Assembly: GCA_046538485.1 (NCBI GenBank)
Contig: JBKHIT010000008.1
Coordinates: 32,001-96,000 of the forward strand
Direction: 5' to 3'
DNA length: 64,000 nt
From: Candidatus Brocadiia bacterium
GTDB taxonomy: Bacteria; Planctomycetota; Brocadiia; SM23-32
Shown: in pieces, positions 57,830 through 64,000 of the stretch
Numbering within the stretch: position 1 is the first letter of the stretch
Layout: each line of letters opens with the position of its first letter
Program-made: the position numbers and the translations under genes
Notes under the pieces: model-generated
What the model saw: only the letters and a program-made list of their open reading frames with translations
What the model was told of the DNA's origin: nothing
Databases searched by the model: none

Positions 57830-57955
57830 ATGCCCCTACATGTAGGGCGTGATCGCCGGGCGCGCCCTGCCGTATTGCCCCGAAACAAAAGACGGCGAAC
57901 AACAAACGGCAGTTCCGCCTCAGTCCCCCCTACCGCGGAGACCTGCAGCTTTCTG
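57830..57955. repeat. REP-like elements
   Basis: GCCCCTACATGTAGGGC palindrome, plus CGAACAACAAACGGCAGTTCCGCCTC shared with 13355-13385 (reverse complement). Confidence 0.6.
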
Positions 57956-58040: not shown

Positions 58041-61000
58041 TTACGGCTGAACTTCGATCTCCACGGGCTGGGTCGCATCGCGGACCTCCGGCTCGTAGTA
58101 CTGATAGACTTCCGTCGGAGGCGTCTTGGCCTTAACGGGGTATTTGGCCCGCAGGTGATACGTGAACCGTACGGGTTCGTTGCCGACAATGCTCTCGAAA
58201 TACAGGATCACCTGTCGACCGGTCAGGGAATATCGCTGAATCAAGCCCTGCTCTTTCAGGCGGTCAAAATCCTCCGTCATGACCTGAAAGCCCGGCGGAA
58301 TGCCCAGATCAACAATTGTCATGCGGGCCACACCGCTCCGGTTGTAGCGGATCGTCGCCTCGCACGCTAATTTGTCGTCCGGACGCAACTTCGTGGTATC
58401 GTACGCTACATCGATGCTCATGGTCTTCTGGGTGGTCGGGGTTTTTCTCTCCCAGGGGAGGTAATGGGTGGCGACGATCTGGTAGGCAAAATTCGCTTCC
58501 CCGGCCGGTTCCAGAGATATCCGGTTGGGTCCGGGTTTCTGGTGTTCGCGCAGGCTGATCAGCCGGAAAACATCGCTGGTCTCCGGCGTGATGGTCAGTT
58601 CTCTGGCGAATTTTCCGTTGACCGAGATCGTGATCGGGAGGTCTTGTTTCAGTTCGGTTGCGGGCCCGGTGCCAGCAAGGAGGGCGCGCATCGCGTGTAC
58701 AGTAGCCTGGGTGGAATGCCACGTGCCGGCTGAATCTTTCTCCTCGATGAGCCAGGCCAGAGCTCTGTGCGCCGTGCCGAGATGAGATTGAGCTTTCAAC
58801 ATCGCGTATGCGGCCAGGGCCGTGGTTTCAATGTTCAGGACATTGCCCCGGGAGTGGGTCACACCCTCCGATTTGGAACTCCAGTGCGCAAGGTCTCCGT
58901 CCTCCTTTTTCGTGGCGTCAAGCATCTTAATTAAATCCCCGGCGCCGGATCGCTCGCCCGCGACGAGCGCATTGGCGCAGACGGCAAGCGTGTAAGCGTC
59001 TTCGTCGCTCGATACGTTCTGTTCGACGTAGTCGAGGGCACGTGAAAGGTTGGAGTCTACGTTTCCCGACTCCGCCAGAGCCCATGCGATGTAGGCGGTT
59101 GTTCGGAGGACGGCGCCCTGGTAGGCGTTGATGGCACCTTCCTGGATGCCCCCCTGGGTCGGTTCCCATGAGCCATTGCGTTTTTGCTGCGAGAACAACC
59201 ACCGGCGCGTTCGCTGTATGACGGCGGGATCGACCTCATAAACTTTCGCCATGTCGTTGAATTCCATCAGACCGTACGCTGTCAGAACGCTGTGGGCGGG
59301 CGCGTTTCCGAACCATTCGAATCCGCCCCCGCTGACTTCGTAGGAGAGCAGACGCTGGTAACCGAGGTTGATGTAATTGAGCGCTTTCATCTCGATTTCG
59401 GGCCTGGATTGATCCGTGCGGCGCATGTAGTCGAGCGCCAGAATGTTGGGGTATGTCACTGAAGACGTCTGTTCGAAACAGCCAAACGGTTTGCGGAAGA
59501 TGCTGTCCAGTCCTTCCATCACCTGGCTGAAGGCGCCGGGATAGATTTTCACCAGCAGGTCGGAGGCGCCATCGATGGCCCGATCGGGAATCACGACCGT
59601 GCGGTTCAGTTTGCCGGTGAGGCGCCCGTTATCCGTCTGGACGATCTCTTTGCCGTCGGGTCGGACGCGGACCTTACGCCGGATCGCGTCGGCCATCTCG
59701 GATCCGAAAGCGCGAACGGTGAGGGTGTGGCGGCCGGGTTTGAGCGCGCGCAGTTTCATCGGGATACTCGTAACTTCCCGGGGACCGATTTCGAGCCGGC
59801 GTTCGGTCTCCCCGAGCATCTCGCACCAATCCGCATCGTCGACTTCCAGCCGGATCAGCTGGGTTTCGTCGAGATAGTTGTAGAGGGCGATCGGGACGCT
59901 GATTTCGTCGTGTTGGGTGAGGGCGACCGGGAAATCAATATCCACAAAGAAATCCTGAAACACCCGCAGCCCGAAGGTCTCCGCGCCCAATCTTCCCTGT
60001 CTCGAGACCGCGCTCATACTGATCCGCCAGGTGGTGATGGAATCGGCGAGCGGGACTTCCAGTTGAGCCCGGCCGGCCTCATCGGTAATAAGTTCCGGTT
60101 TCCAGAGAAGTGTTTCCGGGAAATAGTGTCGGACGCGGCTGGGGGCTTTCAAACTTTCATCTGCAGCCTTTTTGCGCCCCTTTGCGGCTCCGCGAACAGG
60201 GCTTCCATCAAGCGCTTCAGTCATCTCCGCAAACTTCTGGCGTGCGGCCATCCGGGCGGGAGACAGTGCCGGGAGGAGCAACCCGGCGAAGACGAGGAGC
60301 GCGAGAACGGGCAAGGCACCGCTGCGAACGGCTATCCAGACCGCGCGTTTTGTTGAAAGTTTCTGGCAGACAGAGTGTCCCGCAATTGACAGCGCGGGCA
60401 GCGCCGCAAACCAGAGACCGATCATAATCCCCGCTTCCAGCACAATTGTTTCTTCCGCCAGGCCCAACTCAGCTTCGGCGATTGCAAGGGTTAGGATCGA
60501 TACGCTGGCTGCAATATAGGCGAAAGGCAAAAGCGTGGCGAATTTACGGAAAAGCGGCAGGTTGCTGACTCCGGGGCCCTTCCGGAATTTGAAAACCTTG
60601 GCTATGAGGGCTATCAACATGCCGATCCAGGCAATCACCCCAAAACTACCGCTAAAAAGTTCGCCGTGGTAGCGCGCAAAAGCATTCTCGATAATTAGTT
60701 CATCAATAAGCAATCCCACGATGAGTGCTGTGACGGGAATAACCAGTGCCAACAACCAGCTTGCTGTCAGCCACCAGCATGCCCGTCGGAGTCGGTTCAT
60801 CTCTTTTGCATTTAGCTCCGGCACCGGACGTCGTCTGAACAGTTTGTAAAGGCCGTAACCGACCATGGGCAGCACAAACAAGACATACAGTGCAAACGGG
60901 ACCTGTGCGGCCAGTTTCAGGACAGCCCTGCGGTAGTTCACTTTCACTTTTCGAAATCGTCTCTGTTTTTCCTCAAATGAAATGCTCTGCGCTTTCCTCG

Positions 61001-63218
61001 GTGTGGCCGTTCCCTCGGCGGCGGAGAACAGCGCAACCCGGGCTTCTTTCAGTTGTGGTTCCGATTCCCCACGCGGCTCAATGGCCTCTTCAGCCGTCAG
61101 CGGCATATGGCCGTGAATCTCATAGGAAGGTTTGAGTATCTCTTCCTGAAGCGTGAAATAGACCCGTTCGAGTCCCGGGCGCATTTCCTGGAGAGCGAAC
61201 ACGGCCTCGTCCACTCCGGCCAGGCCCAGCGCCGCCTGTGTTGGTTTTCCTTCGGTCCCGGTTACCATGAACGTCAAGGTTGCGTTTTCCCCCGGACGGT
61301 ACGTTTTTTTGTCCATTTTGGTCTCGATCGAGATCTGATCGGGTCGGTTGACCTGGACCACTTTTGCGTCGCTCACGATATTACCGTCGGGCAGGATGCG
61401 ATACGCGTGGAGTTCGAGTGTTCCGAACAGGTCGGGCGGTAGATCGAGTGCAACGGATCCGCGCCCTTTCTCGATATCAAGGGCTTTGCTTAACATCGTC
61501 CGGCTGTTTTTCACGACATCCACGAAAACCCGGGCCCGTCGGTCGCCGGAGAGGACGGATACCTCAGCCGTTTCCCCCGCTTTATAAACGGCTTTGTCAG
61601 TGCGGAGGAGAAAAGCGTGGACCCGCTGATCGACGCGGAGAGGTCGGCTGACTTTCACCCGGCGCCCTCCGTTGTCTTCGGCTTCGATCGTGAGTTTCAT
61701 GCGGGGGGACCGGGGGGTGATTTTGACTTTGGCGAGTCCATTCTCCGCGGTGCGTGTTCTGCGGCGATCAGCACCGATGATCAGTTCGGTCTGTGCCGGT
61801 CGGCCGTCGGGATATGACGTCACGATGTAGAGGATGTTTTCGACGCCCTGGACGAGTCTGCCGCTTTCCGGGAGCACGGCCACGCGTATCGGGCGGGTTG
61901 TGACGGTCAGTTCTTCAGTAATTTCCTGGGTATGACCGGCGGTATCGGTCACTTTAGCTTTGAGAGAAACCGTGGCATCTCCCTTTTTGCGGGCGGTGCC
62001 GGTGAAATGGCGTTTCAGAGGAAGCTGGAACGAAAAATGCCCTTCAGCGTTGGTTTTGCCCTCGGCACTGGCGAACTGACGGAACTTTTCCACAAACTCC
62101 GAGGCTGTGATCTGCACCTCCGCGTTCCGAACGGGTTTCCCGAATGTGTAGCGAGCGGTTATTTCGCCGATGAGCATTTCGCCGGGCCGGTAGAACGTTT
62201 TTCCGCAGCTTATGGTGGCCTTGAACTTCGGCAAACGATAACGTTTGACCGTCACCGTGCGTTCCGATGTGGTGTCGCCGACATGGGCGGAGATGGTGTA
62301 GCGACCGGTGTTGACCTGATCGGCGAGCTGGAAATCGGCGGCCGCGATCCCGTATTGGGAGGTTTTCAGCGTCTTTTTAAAGACCTTGTTGCCTTTAGCG
62401 TCTTTGACTTCGATCGTTGCCGGCTGGTCGGCGACGGGGTGGAGGTCGCTGGTGAAAAGCGACAGGGTCCGCATATGAATCGTCTGCCCGGGCTGGTAGA
62501 GCGGTTTATCGCTGCTGATCATTACCCGGAAAGACCGTTCGATGGTGATGGTGCGGGAGACGACGTTTTTCCCCGCGGCTGATTTTGCGCGCACCCGGAG
62601 GGTATAATCGCCTTCCGATAGGTCCTCGGCCAGTTCTGGCTCAACCCGGGCGTTGCCGTGTTTGTCCGTTTTTGTTGTGCCTTCCCATATCTGTTTCCCA
62701 CCGGGGTCCACCAGTGCGGCGGATACTTTCGCGTTAGGGACGGGTTTTGATTTTTTGCCGTCACGCACGAAAAGCCGAAACGACGCGATCTGTCCCGGTG
62801 TGACCGCCCAGCGTCCGTAGACCATAGTTTCCTGTGGTTTCGCGTGACGCGTGGCGATGTGGCGGTCGATTCCGAGTAAGCCGATGGTTATCAGCGCGAT
62901 GGCGGCGGCGGCGATTTTCCAGAACCGTTTGCTTCCCAGCCAATCTGCCTTCGGTTCGACGGGTTCAGAAGCCATGGTTTGACCCTCCATTCCTTTCTTT
63001 TGCGTCTGCGCCGCTTTTATGGTCCTTTCGGCCAGATCTTCGGGAGGAGGAGGTGCATCCCATTCCCGCAGAGCTTCCTTCTGGCGGCGTATCTTGTCCC
63101 GTGCCTGCCGGCATTCGCGGCAGATTTGCAGGTGTTTTTCTACCTGCTCTCTTTCATCTCCATCGAGCAGATCGAAGACCAGGTCATAGAGTTTTTGCTG
63201 GACTTCTTCGCACTTCAT
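58041..63218 (-). CDS. Zinc anti-sigma (zf-HC2)-TM-alpha-2-macroglobulin fusion with polytopic membrane insert
   Basis: C3..H29LQIC33REC36, TM at aa ~99-117, MG-domain motifs SDKPLYQPGQ / YTFGKPV / DKKTYRPGE / VDEAVFAL, RVRHYFPETLLW, DSITTW, thioester GCFEQ, C-terminal MTIVDLGIPPGF..VYQYYEPE. Confidence 0.92.
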   Translation of the reverse strand: MKCEEVQQKLYDLVFDLLDGDEREQVEKHLQICRECRQARDKIRRQKEALREWDAPPPPEDLAERTIKAAQTQKKGMEGQTMASEPVEPKADWLGSKRFWKIAAAAIALITIGLLGIDRHIATRHAKPQETMVYGRWAVTPGQIASFRLFVRDGKKSKPVPNAKVSAALVDPGGKQIWEGTTKTDKHGNARVEPELAEDLSEGDYTLRVRAKSAAGKNVVSRTITIERSFRVMISSDKPLYQPGQTIHMRTLSLFTSDLHPVADQPATIEVKDAKGNKVFKKTLKTSQYGIAAADFQLADQVNTGRYTISAHVGDTTSERTVTVKRYRLPKFKATISCGKTFYRPGEMLIGEITARYTFGKPVRNAEVQITASEFVEKFRQFASAEGKTNAEGHFSFQLPLKRHFTGTARKKGDATVSLKAKVTDTAGHTQEITEELTVTTRPIRVAVLPESGRLVQGVENILYIVTSYPDGRPAQTELIIGADRRRTRTAENGLAKVKITPRSPRMKLTIEAEDNGGRRVKVSRPLRVDQRVHAFLLRTDKAVYKAGETAEVSVLSGDRRARVFVDVVKNSRTMLSKALDIEKGRGSVALDLPPDLFGTLELHAYRILPDGNIVSDAKVVQVNRPDQISIETKMDKKTYRPGENATLTFMVTGTEGKPTQAALGLAGVDEAVFALQEMRPGLERVYFTLQEEILKPSYEIHGHMPLTAEEAIEPRGESEPQLKEARVALFSAAEGTATPRKAQSISFEEKQRRFRKVKVNYRRAVLKLAAQVPFALYVLFVLPMVGYGLYKLFRRRPVPELNAKEMNRLRRACWWLTASWLLALVIPVTALIVGLLIDELIIENAFARYHGELFSGSFGVIAWIGMLIALIAKVFKFRKGPGVSNLPLFRKFATLLPFAYIAASVSILTLAIAEAELGLAEETIVLEAGIMIGLWFAALPALSIAGHSVCQKLSTKRAVWIAVRSGALPVLALLVFAGLLLPALSPARMAARQKFAEMTEALDGSPVRGAAKGRKKAADESLKAPSRVRHYFPETLLWKPELITDEAGRAQLEVPLADSITTWRISMSAVSRQGRLGAETFGLRVFQDFFVDIDFPVALTQHDEISVPIALYNYLDETQLIRLEVDDADWCEMLGETERRLEIGPREVTSIPMKLRALKPGRHTLTVRAFGSEMADAIRRKVRVRPDGKEIVQTDNGRLTGKLNRTVVIPDRAIDGASDLLVKIYPGAFSQVMEGLDSIFRKPFGCFEQTSSVTYPNILALDYMRRTDQSRPEIEMKALNYINLGYQRLLSYEVSGGGFEWFGNAPAHSVLTAYGLMEFNDMAKVYEVDPAVIQRTRRWLFSQQKRNGSWEPTQGGIQEGAINAYQGAVLRTTAYIAWALAESGNVDSNLSRALDYVEQNVSSDEDAYTLAVCANALVAGERSGAGDLIKMLDATKKEDGDLAHWSSKSEGVTHSRGNVLNIETTALAAYAMLKAQSHLGTAHRALAWLIEEKDSAGTWHSTQATVHAMRALLAGTGPATELKQDLPITISVNGKFARELTITPETSDVFRLISLREHQKPGPNRISLEPAGEANFAYQIVATHYLPWERKTPTTQKTMSIDVAYDTTKLRPDDKLACEATIRYNRSGVARMTIVDLGIPPGFQVMTEDFDRLKEQGLIQRYSLTGRQVILYFESIVGNEPVRFTYHLRAKYPVKAKTPPTEVYQYYEPEVRDATQPVEIEVQP

Positions 63219-63234
63219 ATATTTTCACTTTCGG

Positions 63235-63852
63235 TTACTGGTTTTGAGAGACGTCATGAGCTTCGGCGATATCTTCCAGCTGTTTGCGGAGTTTCTGAAG
63301 GGCCAACCGCATTCTGGATTTGACGGTTCCCGGAGGTATCTGAACAGTATCGGCAATTTCGGCGTAGGTCATCTCGTGGTAAATCTTGAGGATGAATACC
63401 TCTTTCTGTTCGGCGGGGAGTTCGCTGACGGCCTCCTCAATTCGTTCCCCAATTTCCTGGCACTCTATTCGGTGCGGAGGTGAGGGGTCAGATGAGCGGG
63501 GTTCCGGAGAACCGTTGAGCGGACGTGAATCTCTGCTTCCTTTTTTGCGCCAGTGCGAGCGACAGAGGTTCGTCGCGATTGTGTAGAGCCAGGTTTTGAA
63601 CGAACTGTTTCCCCGGAAAGATTCGGCCTTCTGGAAGACCCGCATAAACGTTTCCTGAAAAAGATCCGCCGCGACGGTGCGGTTTCCCGTCAGTTTGTAG
63701 AGCAGACCATGGAGTGGTTTTTCATACCGCCTTACCATCGTCTCAAACATGGTCATATCGCCCTCTATAAAGCCAAAAAGAAGGTCTTTGTCGCTTAACT
63801 CCGTACGATCCCCGCGATAAGAGCGACTCTGCGGTGCGGGGGTCGATTCCAT
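63235..63852 (-). CDS. ECF RNA polymerase sigma factor
   Basis: Region 2 AADLFQETF..FKTWLYTIATN and region 4 MTYAEIA..GTVKSRM. AGGAG RBS. Confidence 0.95.
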   Translation of the reverse strand: MESTPAPQSRSYRGDRTELSDKDLLFGFIEGDMTMFETMVRRYEKPLHGLLYKLTGNRTVAADLFQETFMRVFQKAESFRGNSSFKTWLYTIATNLCRSHWRKKGSRDSRPLNGSPEPRSSDPSPPHRIECQEIGERIEEAVSELPAEQKEVFILKIYHEMTYAEIADTVQIPPGTVKSRMRLALQKLRKQLEDIAEAHDVSQNQ

Positions 63853-63873
63853 TTGTGTCTCCTGTTAAGCGTA

Positions 63874-63899
63874 GACGCATGGGCGTCCCGAATTGATCA
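63874..63899 (-). promoter_or_regulatory. Candidate ECF-dependent autoregulatory promoter
   Basis: Minus strand TGATCA-N16-CGTC, 21 nt upstream of the sigma ATG. Confidence 0.45.
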
Positions 63900-64000
63900 C
63901 CAAAAAATGCCAAAAAAACAAAAAAACAGCTCCGACGGTCAATTCGGGGTGTGCATGATAACTTCTCGGTGGTGGGAACGACAATCAAAACAGCACCGAT

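What the first reader, a model, noticed from the sequence alone, without database searches (positions are those of the whole stretch)
58041..63852. ECF sigma factor whose anti-sigma is a full alpha-2-macroglobulin: candidate protease-sensing signalling system
Seen: an ECF sigma gene is followed after 16 nt by a 1725-aa ORF. It begins with a canonical zinc anti-sigma motif (C3, H29xxxC33xxC36) and one TM helix, and continues as a complete alpha-2-macroglobulin (MG domains, FPETLLW, thioester domain with intact GCFEQ at Cys1247, nt 59469-59480, and a receptor-binding-like C-terminus). Established: ZAS domains sequester cognate ECFs until regulated proteolysis or a conformational change. A2Ms are protease traps whose bait cleavage triggers a large conformational change and thioester attack. 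Characterised bacterial A2Ms (E. coli YfhM, Pseudomonas MagD) are lipoprotein or periplasmic, YfhM is encoded beside pbpC, and neither is an anti-sigma factor. No pbpC lies next to this gene. Inference: the trap doubles as a receptor, so a foreign protease (predator, competitor, phage enzyme) cleaving the bait releases the sigma factor, like an innate-immunity alarm. I know of no characterised example.
Basis: partly seen in the sequence, partly recalled or inferred. Interest (0 to 1): 0.92.

Follow-up and report, generated by a model that had tools for sequence, protein, structure and literature searches.

The report
Anti-sigma factor fused to membrane macroglobulin
A bacterial gene switch (an ECF sigma factor) is held by a partner protein whose outer part is a complement-like, thioester-armed protease trap threaded through the cell membrane seven times, an arrangement kept in many Planctomycetota and not found in the papers searched.

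Summary
A 205-aa ECF sigma gene (63235-63852, -) lies 16 nt upstream of a 1725-aa ORF (58041-63218, -). That ORF starts with a zinc anti-sigma domain and one TM helix, then carries MG domains, BRD, A2M, a TED with GCFEQ (Cys1247) and a receptor-binding-type end.

A disordered, hypervariable, bait-like linker (985-1027) follows it.

The protein is a eukaryote-type thioester protein. Its closest solved relatives are A2ML1, CD109, A2M and C3, while E. coli ECAM is very distant.

The fusion is not an artefact. A contig from an independent study bridges it, and 26 of 27 distinct related loci with an anti-sigma-like N-terminus have an ECF sigma just upstream, against 6 of 65 without one. One clade keeps sigma, a separate ZAS anti-sigma and the macroglobulin as three genes.

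A complex model supports sigma binding (0.81, best control 0.00). A conserved promoter-like motif occurs once in the genome, before this operon.

Protease-triggered release of sigma is plausible but untested. In many relatives the thioester cysteine codon is TGA, probably selenocysteine.

The parts
63872..63897 (-). Promoter-like motif ATCAATT-N13-CGTCTA, ending 19 nt before the sigma ATG
   Evidence: The same ATCMATT-N13-CRTCTA, with the same spacing, stands before the sigma gene in L148 and L083. The pattern ATCMATT-N12-14-CRTCTA has 1 match in the whole 5.19-Mb genome, this one. Inferred to be an ECF-type autoregulated promoter; not shown.
63235..63852 (-). ECF (group 4) sigma factor, 205 aa
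   Evidence: Sigma70_r2 E 4e-21 and Sigma70_r4_2 E 9e-17. TIGR02937 at 117.8 bits against a cut-off of 42.9.
58041..63218 (-). Whole anti-sigma / thioester-protein gene, 1725 aa plus stop
   Evidence: In run X3 (another study) three long contigs cover 61626-64000, 60399-61586 and 58539-60371, with no frame-breaking indel listed inside the gene.
62994..63218 (-). Cytoplasmic anti-sigma domain (residues 1-75) with Cys3 and H29xxxC33xxC36 (motif at nt 63111-63134)
   Evidence: zf-HC2 E 2.2e-8. Four helices, 3-14, 20-32, 34-51 and 62-75, at pLDDT 86-95. The complex model contacts sigma residues 33-74 and 131-200.
62973..62988 (-). GGAGG, 8 nt, then in-frame ATG (Met82): possible internal start for an isoform without the anti-sigma domain
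   Evidence: Sequence. L148 has AAGGAGG-N8-ATG at the same place; L083 lacks it. Relatives with short N-termini begin at this point. Inference only.
62850..62930 (-). TM1 (residues 97-123), preceded by the conserved PVEPxxxWLGxxRFW juxtamembrane motif (85-96)
   Evidence: Hydropathy. AlphaFold helix 97-123. W93 and F99 are nearly invariant.
61191..62849 (-). Periplasmic MG1 to MG6a / BRD (residues 124-676)
   Evidence: Pfam MG2 x2, MG3 and A2M_BRD. All-beta at pLDDT about 90. Foldseek hits CD109, C4, C3 and A2ML1 at E 1e-42 to 1e-37.
60978..61190 (-). Conserved helix (677-697) and variable pre-membrane linker (698-747)
   Evidence: pLDDT 57-66 over about 680-720. Entropy 0.87 bits for 677-697 and 2.14 bits for 698-747.
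60267..60977 (-). Six-helix transmembrane module inserted at the bait position (residues 748-984)
   Evidence: Six hydrophobic segments. Helices 748-794, 804-842, 848-879, 888-918, 922-951 and 956-984 (the module modelled alone has pLDDT 83.5). Among the 120 best homologues, 100 show 6 segments, 14 show 5, 5 show 7 and 1 shows 2. No homologue outside the family and no clear fold match.
60138..60266 (-). Bait-like linker (residues 985-1027), directly before RxRxYFPETLLW
   Evidence: pLDDT below 50 over 985-1021. This is the most variable stretch of the protein at 2.91 bits, and its length ranges from 33 to 86 in 36 relatives. Alignment to A2ML1, A2M and C3 resumes at query 1007-1030, which corresponds to chain residues 685 (A2ML1), 729 (A2M) and 752 (C3).
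59535..60137 (-). MG6b, MG7 (Pfam A2M) and first CUB part (residues 1028-1228)
   Evidence: Pfam A2M at 1036-1125, E 2e-20. Entropy 1.20 bits.
58680..59534 (-). Thioester domain (residues 1229-1513); CFEQ at nt 59469-59480, Cys1247
   Evidence: TED_complement E 9e-49. G1246-C-F-E-Q1250 is invariant in 36 of 36 aligned relatives and GCFEQ is present in 120 of 120 best hits.
58044..58679 (-). C-terminal CUB part and MG8 / receptor-binding-type domain (residues 1514-1725)
   Evidence: A2M_recep at 1631-1713, E 7e-16. Aligned to the end of A2ML1, CD109, A2M and C3.

Best explanation
This is a two-gene ECF signalling unit. Its anti-sigma factor is a membrane-integrated, eukaryote-type thioester protein (TEP).

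Supported by the tool results (the pairing and the topology are predictions):
- The cytoplasmic N-terminus is a zinc-type class I anti-sigma domain, paired with the co-oriented sigma gene 16 nt upstream.
- TM1 leads out to MG1-MG6.
- The chain then crosses the membrane six more times.
- A disordered, hypervariable bait-like linker follows.
- The chain continues outside as MG7, CUB, a thioester domain with an intact GCFEQ, and MG8.

Inferred:
- At rest the anti-sigma domain sequesters the sigma factor.
- A protease that reaches the outer face of the cytoplasmic membrane cuts the bait-like linker.
- The TEP springs as A2ML1, CD109 or C3 do, and the thioester tethers the protease.
- The spent, rearranged protein is then removed. 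Either the seven-helix module changes so that TM1 becomes a substrate for site-2 protease, or general turnover of the reacted form does it.
- The sigma factor is freed.
- Because the conserved promoter-like motif occurs only before this operon, the main output would be new sigma and new trap: a single-use sensor that replaces itself.
For: Architecture.

Topology: the loops after TM2, TM4 and TM6 are rich in Lys and Arg, and an even number of inserted helices returns the C-terminal half to the outside.

Sigma binding:
- ipSAE 0.81 in each of 3 runs; best of 3 controls 0.00.
- The tool's mark was reached by 116 of 157 solved complexes and 2 of 215 mismatched pairs. These counts hold only roughly because my own alignment was used.
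- The runs share at least 96% of contacts, and the partner's pLDDT is at least 79.
- Contacts lie on sigma residues 33-74 and 131-200.
- ZAS/ECF complexes have been solved, so this pass may reflect likeness to them.

Conservation of the pairing:
- Among 108 distinct related loci with a complete 5' end, 10 had no N-terminal TM and 6 had too little upstream sequence, and these were set aside. The remaining 92 were classed.
- A sigma gene lies within 1.5 kb upstream on the same strand in 20 of 21 loci with a ZAS motif, 4 of 4 with the 'LLD' type, 2 of 2 with a degenerate ZAS, and 6 of 65 others.
- The one ZAS miss, L028, has a contig-cut sigma region-4 fragment upstream.
- On a tree of 86 C-terminal halves, the anti-sigma label needs 7 changes, with at least 5 forced by starred branches. 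In 5 independent pairs the sigma neighbour went the same way in 4.7 on average and never the other way. The sign test gives p = 0.06, the best that 5 pairs can reach.

Unfused form: L098 has sigma, a separate 547-aa zf-HC2 anti-sigma and then the macroglobulin. Eight loci have a sigma-like ORF 1.2-1.8 kb upstream.

A working trap:
- GCFEQ and 100+ other columns are invariant.
- The Cys codon is TGA in 25 distinct related loci, in genomes that hold selB and tRNA-Sec.

Bait: residues 985-1027 are disordered and are the most variable region.

Autoregulation: the motif is shared by 3 of 3 loci of the window's clade and has 1 match in the genome.

Not an artefact.

An M50 site-2 protease is present in the genome. 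This is non-discriminating, since all 14 control genomes have one too.
Against: - No experiment or expression data exist; no RNA run was listed.
- Release of sigma after proteolysis is pure inference.
- The 6-TM module has no counterpart in any characterised TEP. It might change how, or whether, the bait works. After a cut at 985-1027 both fragments could simply stay in place.
- Many relatives have the same TM module with no anti-sigma domain and no sigma neighbour. The module therefore did not evolve for signalling alone.
- In 5 independent pairs the anti-sigma domain did not track the TM insert.
- The promoter motif rests on three sequences and a strict pattern, so a wider regulon could be missed. 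A looser pattern gave 10 matches, about what I calculate for chance.
- The complex model may pass by likeness to solved ZAS/ECF pairs.
Confidence: 0.5

Rival explanations
1. Dosage feedback without threat sensing. The anti-sigma domain only couples sigma activity to the amount or integrity of the membrane TEP. Any shortage or turnover of the protein frees sigma and restores the level. Proteases are not a specific signal.
For: The only genome match to the conserved promoter-like motif is the operon itself. A possible internal start at Met82 would let trap and regulator be made in different amounts. Many relatives work without any anti-sigma domain.
Against: Simple autoregulation does not need a 1600-aa sensor fused to the regulator. 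The same pairing arose or persisted in at least three clades, and also as separate genes. This argues that the state of the TEP itself is what is reported.
Confidence: 0.2
2. The TEP senses something other than proteases. Candidates are small nucleophiles or amines that discharge the thioester, a surface or polymer it binds covalently (complement-like tagging), or membrane or envelope stress felt by the seven-helix module.
For: Thioesters react with small amines (methylamine-treated C3 and CD109 structures are in the fold hits). Relatives with Sec at this site suggest selection on the chemistry of the reactive bond. The closest solved relatives include C3, C4 and CD109, which are not simple protease traps. 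The TM module is of unknown function.
Against: A long, disordered, hypervariable linker at the canonical bait position is the hallmark of protease-activated members. No extra ligand-binding domain was found.
Confidence: 0.15
3. The zinc anti-sigma domain is the real sensor, responding to cytoplasmic thiol oxidation as RsrA does. The macroglobulin part is only a passenger or membrane anchor.
For: Four possible zinc ligands: C3, H29, C33, C36. Weak hit to the RsrA model TIGR03988, E 0.0037 and below cut-off. By recall, the C-x25-H-x3-C-x2-C spacing matches RsrA.
Against: Sister loci of the same clade (L005, L150, L151) have an N-terminal domain with no Cys/His ligands yet keep the sigma neighbour and the TEP. 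L071 and L073 have lost the cysteines as well. A redox switch needs no 1600-aa conserved extracytoplasmic part.
Confidence: 0.05
4. Assembly or annotation artefact: two genes, an anti-sigma factor and a macroglobulin, wrongly joined.
For: None found. The window comes from a metagenome-assembled genome (88% complete, 143 contigs).
Against: A 2531-nt contig from another study's run (X3, 58 differences) runs from inside the MG region across TM1, the anti-sigma domain and the sigma gene. Twenty-four of the 120 best homologues and 21 distinct loci carry the same fusion.
Confidence: 0.01

Closest known systems
Class I zinc anti-sigma factors with their ECF sigma (RsrA-SigR, ChrR-SigE, RslA-SigL; names recalled)
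   Same: HxxxCxxC plus an upstream ligand, a four-helix domain, a gene directly after the sigma gene, and predicted contacts to sigma regions 2 and 4.
   Different: The extracytoplasmic part is a 1600-aa thioester protein. There are seven TM helices rather than none or one. Sister forms lack the zinc ligands.
Eukaryotic monomeric thioester proteins A2ML1 (7q1y) and CD109 (8s3o, 9fx3); also human A2M and complement C3/C4
   Same: Best sequence matches among solved structures: E 6.5e-68, 8.9e-67, 1.2e-63 and about 5e-49. Same domain order, same FPETW and GCxEQ motifs, and a receptor-binding-type end. Foldseek E 1e-42 to 1e-36.
   Different: This protein is bacterial and integrated in the membrane by TM1 plus six helices at the bait / anaphylatoxin position. 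It has a cytoplasmic anti-sigma domain. CD109 is GPI-anchored and A2ML1 is secreted (recalled).
Type I bacterial alpha-2-macroglobulins: E. coli ECAM/YfhM (5a42, 4ziq) and Salmonella SaA2M (4u48)
   Same: [quoted passage not shown]
   Different: Only a distant relative: E 1e-7 and 3e-8 over about 300 residues; Foldseek rank 47. It has no lipoprotein signal and no pbpC neighbour, and none of the bacterial MG models reach their cut-offs. ECAM has no link to a sigma factor (recalled).
Anti-sigma factors that are themselves the receptor for a threat and are destroyed by regulated intramembrane proteolysis (RsiV-SigV with lysozyme, RseA-SigE, RsiW-SigW; recalled)
   Same: Proposed logic: the extracytoplasmic domain meets the threat, the anti-sigma factor is degraded and sigma is released. 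An M50 site-2 protease is present in the genome.
   Different: Here the sensing domain would be a covalent, single-use protease trap. No cleavage step has been shown.
Unfused relatives: operon of sigma, separate zf-HC2 anti-sigma and macroglobulin (L098 and seven similar loci)
   Same: Same three functions side by side.
   Different: These are three genes. The macroglobulin there has a plain signal anchor and no TM insert.

Membership tests
ECF (group 4) sigma-70 factors | Regions 2 and 4 only, about 200 aa | tested here: met
   Sigma70_r2 E 4e-21 and r4_2 E 9e-17, with no region 3 hit. TIGR02937 at 117.8 bits, above its cut-off of 42.9.
Class I anti-sigma domain, zinc type (ZAS) | HxxxCxxC motif with a fourth ligand upstream | tested here: met
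   C3, H29, C33 and C36 in the translation. zf-HC2 at 34.4 bits, above its cut-off of 22.2.
Class I anti-sigma domain, zinc type (ZAS) | Four-helix domain that binds regions 2 and 4 of the cognate sigma | tested here: met
   In silico only. Helices 3-14, 20-32, 34-51 and 62-75. Complex score 0.81 against a best control of 0.00, with contacts on sigma 33-74 and 131-200. The pass may reflect likeness to solved pairs.
Class I anti-sigma domain, zinc type (ZAS) | Zinc actually bound; sigma released on signal | not testable with these tools
   Needs biochemistry.
Thioester-containing proteins (A2M / C3 / TEP superfamily) | MG1-MG8 ring, CUB, and a TED with the CxEQ thioester motif | tested here: met
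   Pfam MG2, MG3, A2M_BRD, A2M, TED_complement and A2M_recep all above cut-off. GCFEQ at 1246-1250. Foldseek E 1e-42 to CD109.
Thioester-containing proteins (A2M / C3 / TEP superfamily) | Exposed, variable bait region (or ANA domain) between MG6a and MG6b | tested here: inconclusive
   A disordered, hypervariable 43-residue linker is present at the right place. It is preceded by a six-helix membrane module unknown in characterised members. Cleavage was not tested.
Thioester-containing proteins (A2M / C3 / TEP superfamily) | Thioester bond formed and reactive | not testable with these tools
   The motif is invariant. The bond itself needs heat-fragmentation or methylamine assays.
Type I bacterial A2M (ECAM/YfhM type) | Lipoprotein signal peptide with lipobox | tested here: not met
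   The N-terminus is an anti-sigma domain, and the first hydrophobic segment starts at residue 97.
Type I bacterial A2M (ECAM/YfhM type) | Gene next to pbpC | tested here: not met
   The neighbours are the sigma gene, an aminotransferase and an unknown convergent ORF.
Type I bacterial A2M (ECAM/YfhM type) | Close sequence relationship and the bacterial MG domain set | tested here: not met
   E 1e-7 and 3e-8 to 5a42 and 4u48, against 1e-63 to 1e-68 to eukaryotic members. bMG3 and bMG10 fall below their cut-offs.
Selenocysteine-bearing relatives (TGA at the thioester codon) | In-frame TGA at the Cys position, plus Sec machinery | tested here: not met
   The window has a Cys codon at nt 59478-59480 (GCFEQ). 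The genome has no selB above cut-off: best 191 bits against 242, at 88% completeness. The trait is seen in relatives only.

The most novel reading that the evidence does not exclude
A bacterial, complement-like alarm built from one polypeptide. A eukaryote-type thioester protein is wired through a seven-helix membrane module to an anti-sigma domain. An irreversible event outside the cell (bait cleavage or discharge of the thio- or seleno-ester) is converted into release of an ECF sigma factor, whose main target is its own operon. An internal start (Met82) would supply extra trap copies without the regulator. If so, this family, which sits closer to A2ML1, CD109 and C3 than to ECAM, would be the first case of a TEP acting as a transmembrane signalling receptor. 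It would also offer a prokaryotic model for how TEP conformational change can be read out.
Probability: 0.25. Interest if true: 0.92.

Novelty: new variant of a known kind. Interest (0 to 1): 0.8.

Why it matters
ECF sigma / anti-sigma pairs are among the largest bacterial signalling classes, yet the signals sensed by most of them are unknown. Here the sensor domain is a protein whose biochemistry is well understood: bait cleavage, a large conformational change and a covalent thioester reaction. That gives a concrete, testable input.

For the thioester-protein field this adds three things:
- a large bacterial family closer to animal A2ML1, CD109 and C3 than to the studied E. coli and Salmonella proteins;
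- an unprecedented membrane module at the bait position;
- natural Cys/Sec variation at the reactive site.

If the link to sigma release holds, it would be a bacterial analogue of innate-immune protease or danger sensing. It would also be a ready-made, reprogrammable sensor, since swapping the bait should change which protease is reported.

Tried and rejected
Origin of the 6-TM module:
- No homologue among proteins shorter than 948 aa.
- Nothing in the ESM Atlas once A2M families were excluded.
- Foldseek against the PDB: best E 0.085, TM-score 0.25 or less.
- VIA-align wide: best Z 9.3, to generic helical bundles and below the tool's own bar for helical models.
- Across clades the module is only 26% identical on average and has no invariant polar residue. 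I therefore dropped an enzyme or rhomboid-like reading.

Non-zinc N-termini: Pfam finds nothing significant in six of them. They are called anti-sigma-like only from their sigma neighbours and their position.

Counting the fusions:
- The search with residues 1-84 gave 48 candidates and none at E <= 0.001.
- The representative search with residues 1-135 gave 450 hits at E <= 0.001, mostly short proteins or fragments.
- Neither search counts fusions.

Regulon:
- The loose pattern TGATC-N16-18-CRTCTA gave 10 genome matches, about what I calculate for chance.
- The generic sigma-70 promoter and terminator scans were at chance level.

Other searches and tests:
- Verrucomicrobiota sample searched with P0029: 1 of 251 genomes, the centre genome itself.
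- Expression: no RNA holder listed.
- The TM insert tracking the anti-sigma domain: 27 of 27 anti-sigma forms have at least one inserted hydrophobic segment, against 31 of 59 others. In 5 independent pairs the insert did not differ in 4, so this gives no independent support.
- My crude hydropathy counts of inserted helices in other loci (0 to 10, odd numbers included) were not refined.
- The earlier-findings look-up by sequence found nothing.


Full report
**1. What is in the window.**

On the minus strand a 205-aa ORF (63235-63852) is followed after 16 nt by a 1725-aa ORF (58041-63218).

The small protein is an ECF sigma factor. It has Sigma70_r2 and r4_2 and scores 117.8 bits on TIGR02937 against a cut-off of 42.9.

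The large protein carries, in order:
- zf-HC2 (residues 3-37, E 2.2e-8)
- two MG2 stretches and MG3
- A2M_BRD (538-676)
- A2M (1036-1125)
- TED_complement (1229-1513, E 9e-49)
- A2M_recep (1631-1713)

C3, H29xxxC33xxC36, FPETLLW (1033) and GCFEQ (1246-1250) are all present. The neighbours are a class-III aminotransferase upstream and a convergent ORF of unknown family downstream. No pbpC is near.

**2.

Between BRD and the A2M domain lie about 330 residues with no Pfam match. They hold six strongly hydrophobic segments.

An AlphaFold2 model of residues 1-1200 was built from a 90-sequence alignment (mean pLDDT 85.2, pTM 0.65). It gives:
- a four-helix N-terminal domain
- TM1 (97-123)
- an all-beta MG region
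- six long helices: 748-794, 804-842, 848-879, 888-918, 922-951 and 956-984
- a 37-residue stretch with pLDDT below 50 (985-1021)
- beta structure from residue 1036 onward

The loops after TM2, TM4 and TM6 are Lys/Arg-rich. An even number of inserted helices puts both halves of the macroglobulin outside and the anti-sigma domain inside. This topology is predicted, not shown.

**3. Which kind of macroglobulin.**

Among solved structures the best sequence matches are eukaryotic:

| Structure | E-value |
|---|---|
| A2ML1 (7q1y) | 6.5e-68 |
| CD109 (8s3o) | 8.9e-67 |
| human A2M (6tav) | 1.2e-63 |
| C3 | about 5e-49 |
| mosquito TEP1 | 6e-46 |
| Salmonella SaA2M (4u48) | 3.4e-8 |
| E. coli ECAM (5a42) | 1.1e-7 |

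Foldseek on the model agrees: CD109 at E 1.2e-42, ECAM at rank 47.

The alignments break at the insert and resume at query 1007-1030, which corresponds to chain residues 685 in A2ML1, 729 in A2M and 752 in C3. By recall these lie just past the bait or ANA segment. The six helices thus sit at the bait / anaphylatoxin position.

Residues 985-1027 are the most variable part of the whole protein. Mean column entropy is 2.91 bits, against 1.2-1.5 for the MG and TED parts, and length ranges from 33 to 86 in 36 relatives. This stretch is disordered in the model. It has the properties of a bait region.

**4. The family.**

A word-indexed search gave 4168 proteins at E <= 0.001 among the 8000 candidates scored. 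All 120 best hits (44-95% identity) carry GCFEQ.

Hydrophobic segments in the insert of those 120:

| Segments | Hits |
|---|---|
| 6 | 100 |
| 5 | 14 |
| 7 | 5 |
| 2 | 1 |

N-termini of the same 120:

| N-terminal type | Hits |
|---|---|
| ZAS motif | 24 |
| 'L-x-L-x-LLD' type without zinc ligands | 25 |
| other long N-termini, mostly variants of the LLD type | 29 |
| 40-69 residues before the first TM | 16 |
| fewer than 40 residues | 19 |
| no N-terminal TM (probably partial) | 7 |

By record title they come from Planctomycetota, Verrucomicrobiota, Armatimonadota, Acidobacteriota, Hydrogenedentota, WOR-3, Myxococcota and others.

In the window's own class only this genome, of 132, has an orthologue; the other matches are 25-30% identical partial hits. 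In a sample of its phylum, 42 of 401 genomes match at E <= 1e-100. The distribution is patchy.

The TM module has no detectable relative outside the family and no clear fold match. It is weakly conserved between clades, at 26% mean identity. In more distant relatives my crude counts suggest inserts of 0, 2, 4, 6 or 8 helices. Odd counts also occur and were not resolved.

**5. Is the sigma link real?**

*Assembly.* In a run from a different study (X3), a 2531-nt contig with 58 differences spans 61626-64000. That covers MG domains, TM1, the anti-sigma domain, the 16-nt gap and the sigma gene. Two further long contigs cover 60399-61586 and 58539-60371.

*Conservation.* I took all distinct related loci with a complete 5' end and at least 1 kb upstream. 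I classed them by N-terminal sequence motif alone, then asked whether a sigma gene (profile E <= 1e-4) ends within 1.5 kb upstream on the same strand:

| N-terminal class | Loci with sigma upstream |
|---|---|
| ZAS | 20 of 21 |
| LLD type | 4 of 4 |
| degenerate ZAS | 2 of 2 |
| all others | 6 of 65 |

- Ten loci without a detectable first TM and six with too little upstream sequence were set aside.
- The one ZAS miss (L028) has a sigma region-4 fragment cut by the contig end, plus an extra 180-aa ORF.
- Some loci (L177-L196) were picked by me from matches that reached the N-terminus, so the sample is not random.

*Phylogeny.* On a FastTree of 86 C-terminal halves, the anti-sigma forms fall in at least three well-supported clades:
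- the window's clade, with six TM helices and ZAS or LLD N-termini
- a Pirellulales-type clade, with about two TM helices
- a clade with TGA at the thioester codon

The label needs 7 changes, of which 5 are forced by starred branches. In 5 phylogenetically independent pairs the sigma neighbour followed the anti-sigma domain in 4.7 on average and never opposed it. The sign test gives p = 0.06, the limit for 5 pairs.

*Unfused form.* In a soil/peat clade without a TM insert, the order is sigma-like gene, a separate 547-aa zf-HC2 anti-sigma factor, then the macroglobulin. L098 was examined in detail. Eight loci show the sigma-like ORF 1.2-1.8 kb upstream.

*Binding model.*
- Sigma with residues 1-97 scored ipSAE 0.81 in three runs; the best of three controls was 0.00.
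- The tool's mark was reached by 116 of 157 solved complexes and 2 of 215 mismatched pairs. These counts hold only roughly, as my own alignment was used.
- At least 96% of contacts are shared between runs, and the partner's pLDDT is at least 79.
- The contacts cover sigma region 2 (33-74) and region 4 (131-200).
- ZAS/ECF complexes have been solved, so this shows likeness to them, not proof of binding.

**6. Output of the system.**

About 20-30 nt before the sigma start codon, the three ZAS loci of the window's clade share ATCMATT-N13-CRTCTA with identical spacing. These loci are the window, L148 and L083. In the window this lies at 63872-63897.

The pattern, with spacing 12-14, occurs once in the 5.19-Mb genome (88% complete), at this site. 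I expect about 2 matches by chance. The LLD sister loci share a different motif, GTTGAnTyC-N12-CAwAsGG (read by eye).

This fits an autoregulated ECF promoter whose clearest target is the operon itself. It rests on few sequences, and a looser pattern was uninformative.

**7. Mechanism.**

*Supported by the tool results (pairing and topology are predictions):* the architecture, the predicted topology, the sigma pairing and the conservation of the reactive site.

*Inferred:*
- The anti-sigma domain holds sigma.
- A protease cutting the bait-like linker triggers the TEP rearrangement and covalent capture. This is established for A2M-family inhibitors; the abstract of PMC9156758, seen in the listing, states that A2ML1 inhibition depends on covalent binding through the thioester.
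- The spent protein is then cleared, perhaps after TM1 becomes accessible to the M50 site-2 protease present in the genome (non-discriminating).
- Sigma re-induces the operon.

*Points against:*
- Relatives have the same TM module but no anti-sigma domain.
- No independent association was found between the insert and the anti-sigma domain.
- There is no functional data at all.

I put 0.5 on this composite reading. The rivals are dosage feedback only (0.2), another signal such as nucleophiles, covalent tagging or membrane stress (0.15), a cytoplasmic redox switch (0.05; sister forms lack the zinc ligands) and an artefact (0.01).

**8. Side observations.**

*Selenocysteine.*
- In 31 match rows from 19 of the 42 matching genomes of the phylum sample, the match contains one TGA.
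- In every such locus I inspected, the TGA is exactly the thioester cysteine codon, reading G*FEQ or G*MEQ. That is 14 of loci L148-L176 and 17 of 20 fetched regions.
- Twenty-five distinct TGA loci fold more stably downstream than 124 Cys loci: mean -19.0 against -13.1 kcal/mol at similar G+C. Some have a perfect 7-bp hairpin 13 nt after the UGA.
- selB is above cut-off in 4 of 5 such genomes, and tRNA-Sec in 5 of 5.
- The window's genome has Cys and no selB above cut-off.
- Two earlier notes of this scan report the same trait in other genomes.
- Two literature searches found nothing relevant.

*Possible internal start.* GGAGG lies 8 nt before an in-frame ATG (Met82). L148 has the same arrangement and L083 does not. 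Short-N-terminus relatives begin there, so an isoform without the anti-sigma domain is possible.

**9. Literature.**

Searches of the held library:
- anti-sigma + macroglobulin: 6 papers, none relevant
- macroglobulin + Planctomycetes + sigma factor: 0 papers
- extracytoplasmic function / anti-sigma / MG2 domain / A2M / thioester: 12 papers, none combining the two fields
- bacterial alpha-2-macroglobulin terms

I saw only listings and abstract starts and read no paper in full. Supplements of the ECF classification papers, which I did not open, could list such anti-sigma architectures. Subscription journals are not covered. Statements about RsrA, RsiV, RseA, RsiW, ECAM's lipoprotein anchor and pbpC, and CD109's anchor are recalled, not checked here.

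**10. Verdict.**

This is a real and conserved system, apparently undescribed in the papers I could search. It joins an ECF sigma / anti-sigma pair (a known kind) to a new sensor: a eukaryote-type thioester protein with a membrane module at its bait position. I rate it a new variant of a known kind, with interest 0.8.

Noticed in passing
L159, L160, L162, L163, L165-L168, L170-L174, L176; L177-L196 except L179, L182 and L193; L108, L109, L111-L116, L125: The thioester cysteine codon is an in-frame TGA (G*FEQ or G*MEQ) in many relatives. This occurs across architectures: signal-peptide forms, forms with 8 TM helices, and forms with ZAS plus sigma. The downstream RNA is more stable, and selB and tRNA-Sec are present in the genomes tested. 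This is probably selenocysteine, which would make a selenoester warhead. The window itself has Cys.
   Followed up: partly
window 62973-62988 (-): GGAGG lies 8 nt before the in-frame ATG of Met82, just before the conserved PVEP..WLG motif. L148 has AAGGAGG-N8-ATG at the same place although its amino acids differ. L083 lacks it. This may be an internal start giving a trap without the anti-sigma domain.
   Followed up: partly
L098:533-8677 (also L091, L092, L099, L100, L107, L124, L127): The same functions appear unfused: a sigma-like gene, a separate 547-aa zf-HC2 anti-sigma factor with a CarboxypepD_reg domain, then a 1778-aa macroglobulin without a TM insert.
   Followed up: partly
window 57837-57879: A segment of about 40 nt just downstream of the gene is matched by many unrelated contigs in all four runs laid; word depth is 114 against 32 for the flanks in X1. 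It is a short dispersed repeat, palindromic in part.
   Followed up: no
window 58041-63852, compared with genomes of the same class: Only this genome, of the 132 in its class, has an orthologue, whereas 42 of 401 sampled genomes of the phylum do. The nearest relatives on the tree come from other lineages. This patchy distribution suggests horizontal transfer.
   Followed up: partly
window 63456-63461 (sigma gene): The related strain in run X3 has a 1-nt insertion behind 63456 and a 1-nt deletion at 63461. The pair compensates, changing one or two codons of the sigma factor.
   Followed up: no
L028:211-753: In one Pirellulaceae locus an extra 180-aa ORF with no Pfam family above its cut-off (weak DUF4982 hit, 17.2 bits against 23.9) lies between the sigma gene and the ZAS-macroglobulin gene.
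   Followed up: no
L005, L150, L009, upstream of their sigma genes: The loci with the non-zinc 'LLD' anti-sigma type share a different promoter-like motif, GTTGAnTyC-N12-CAwAsGG, before the sigma gene.
   Followed up: no
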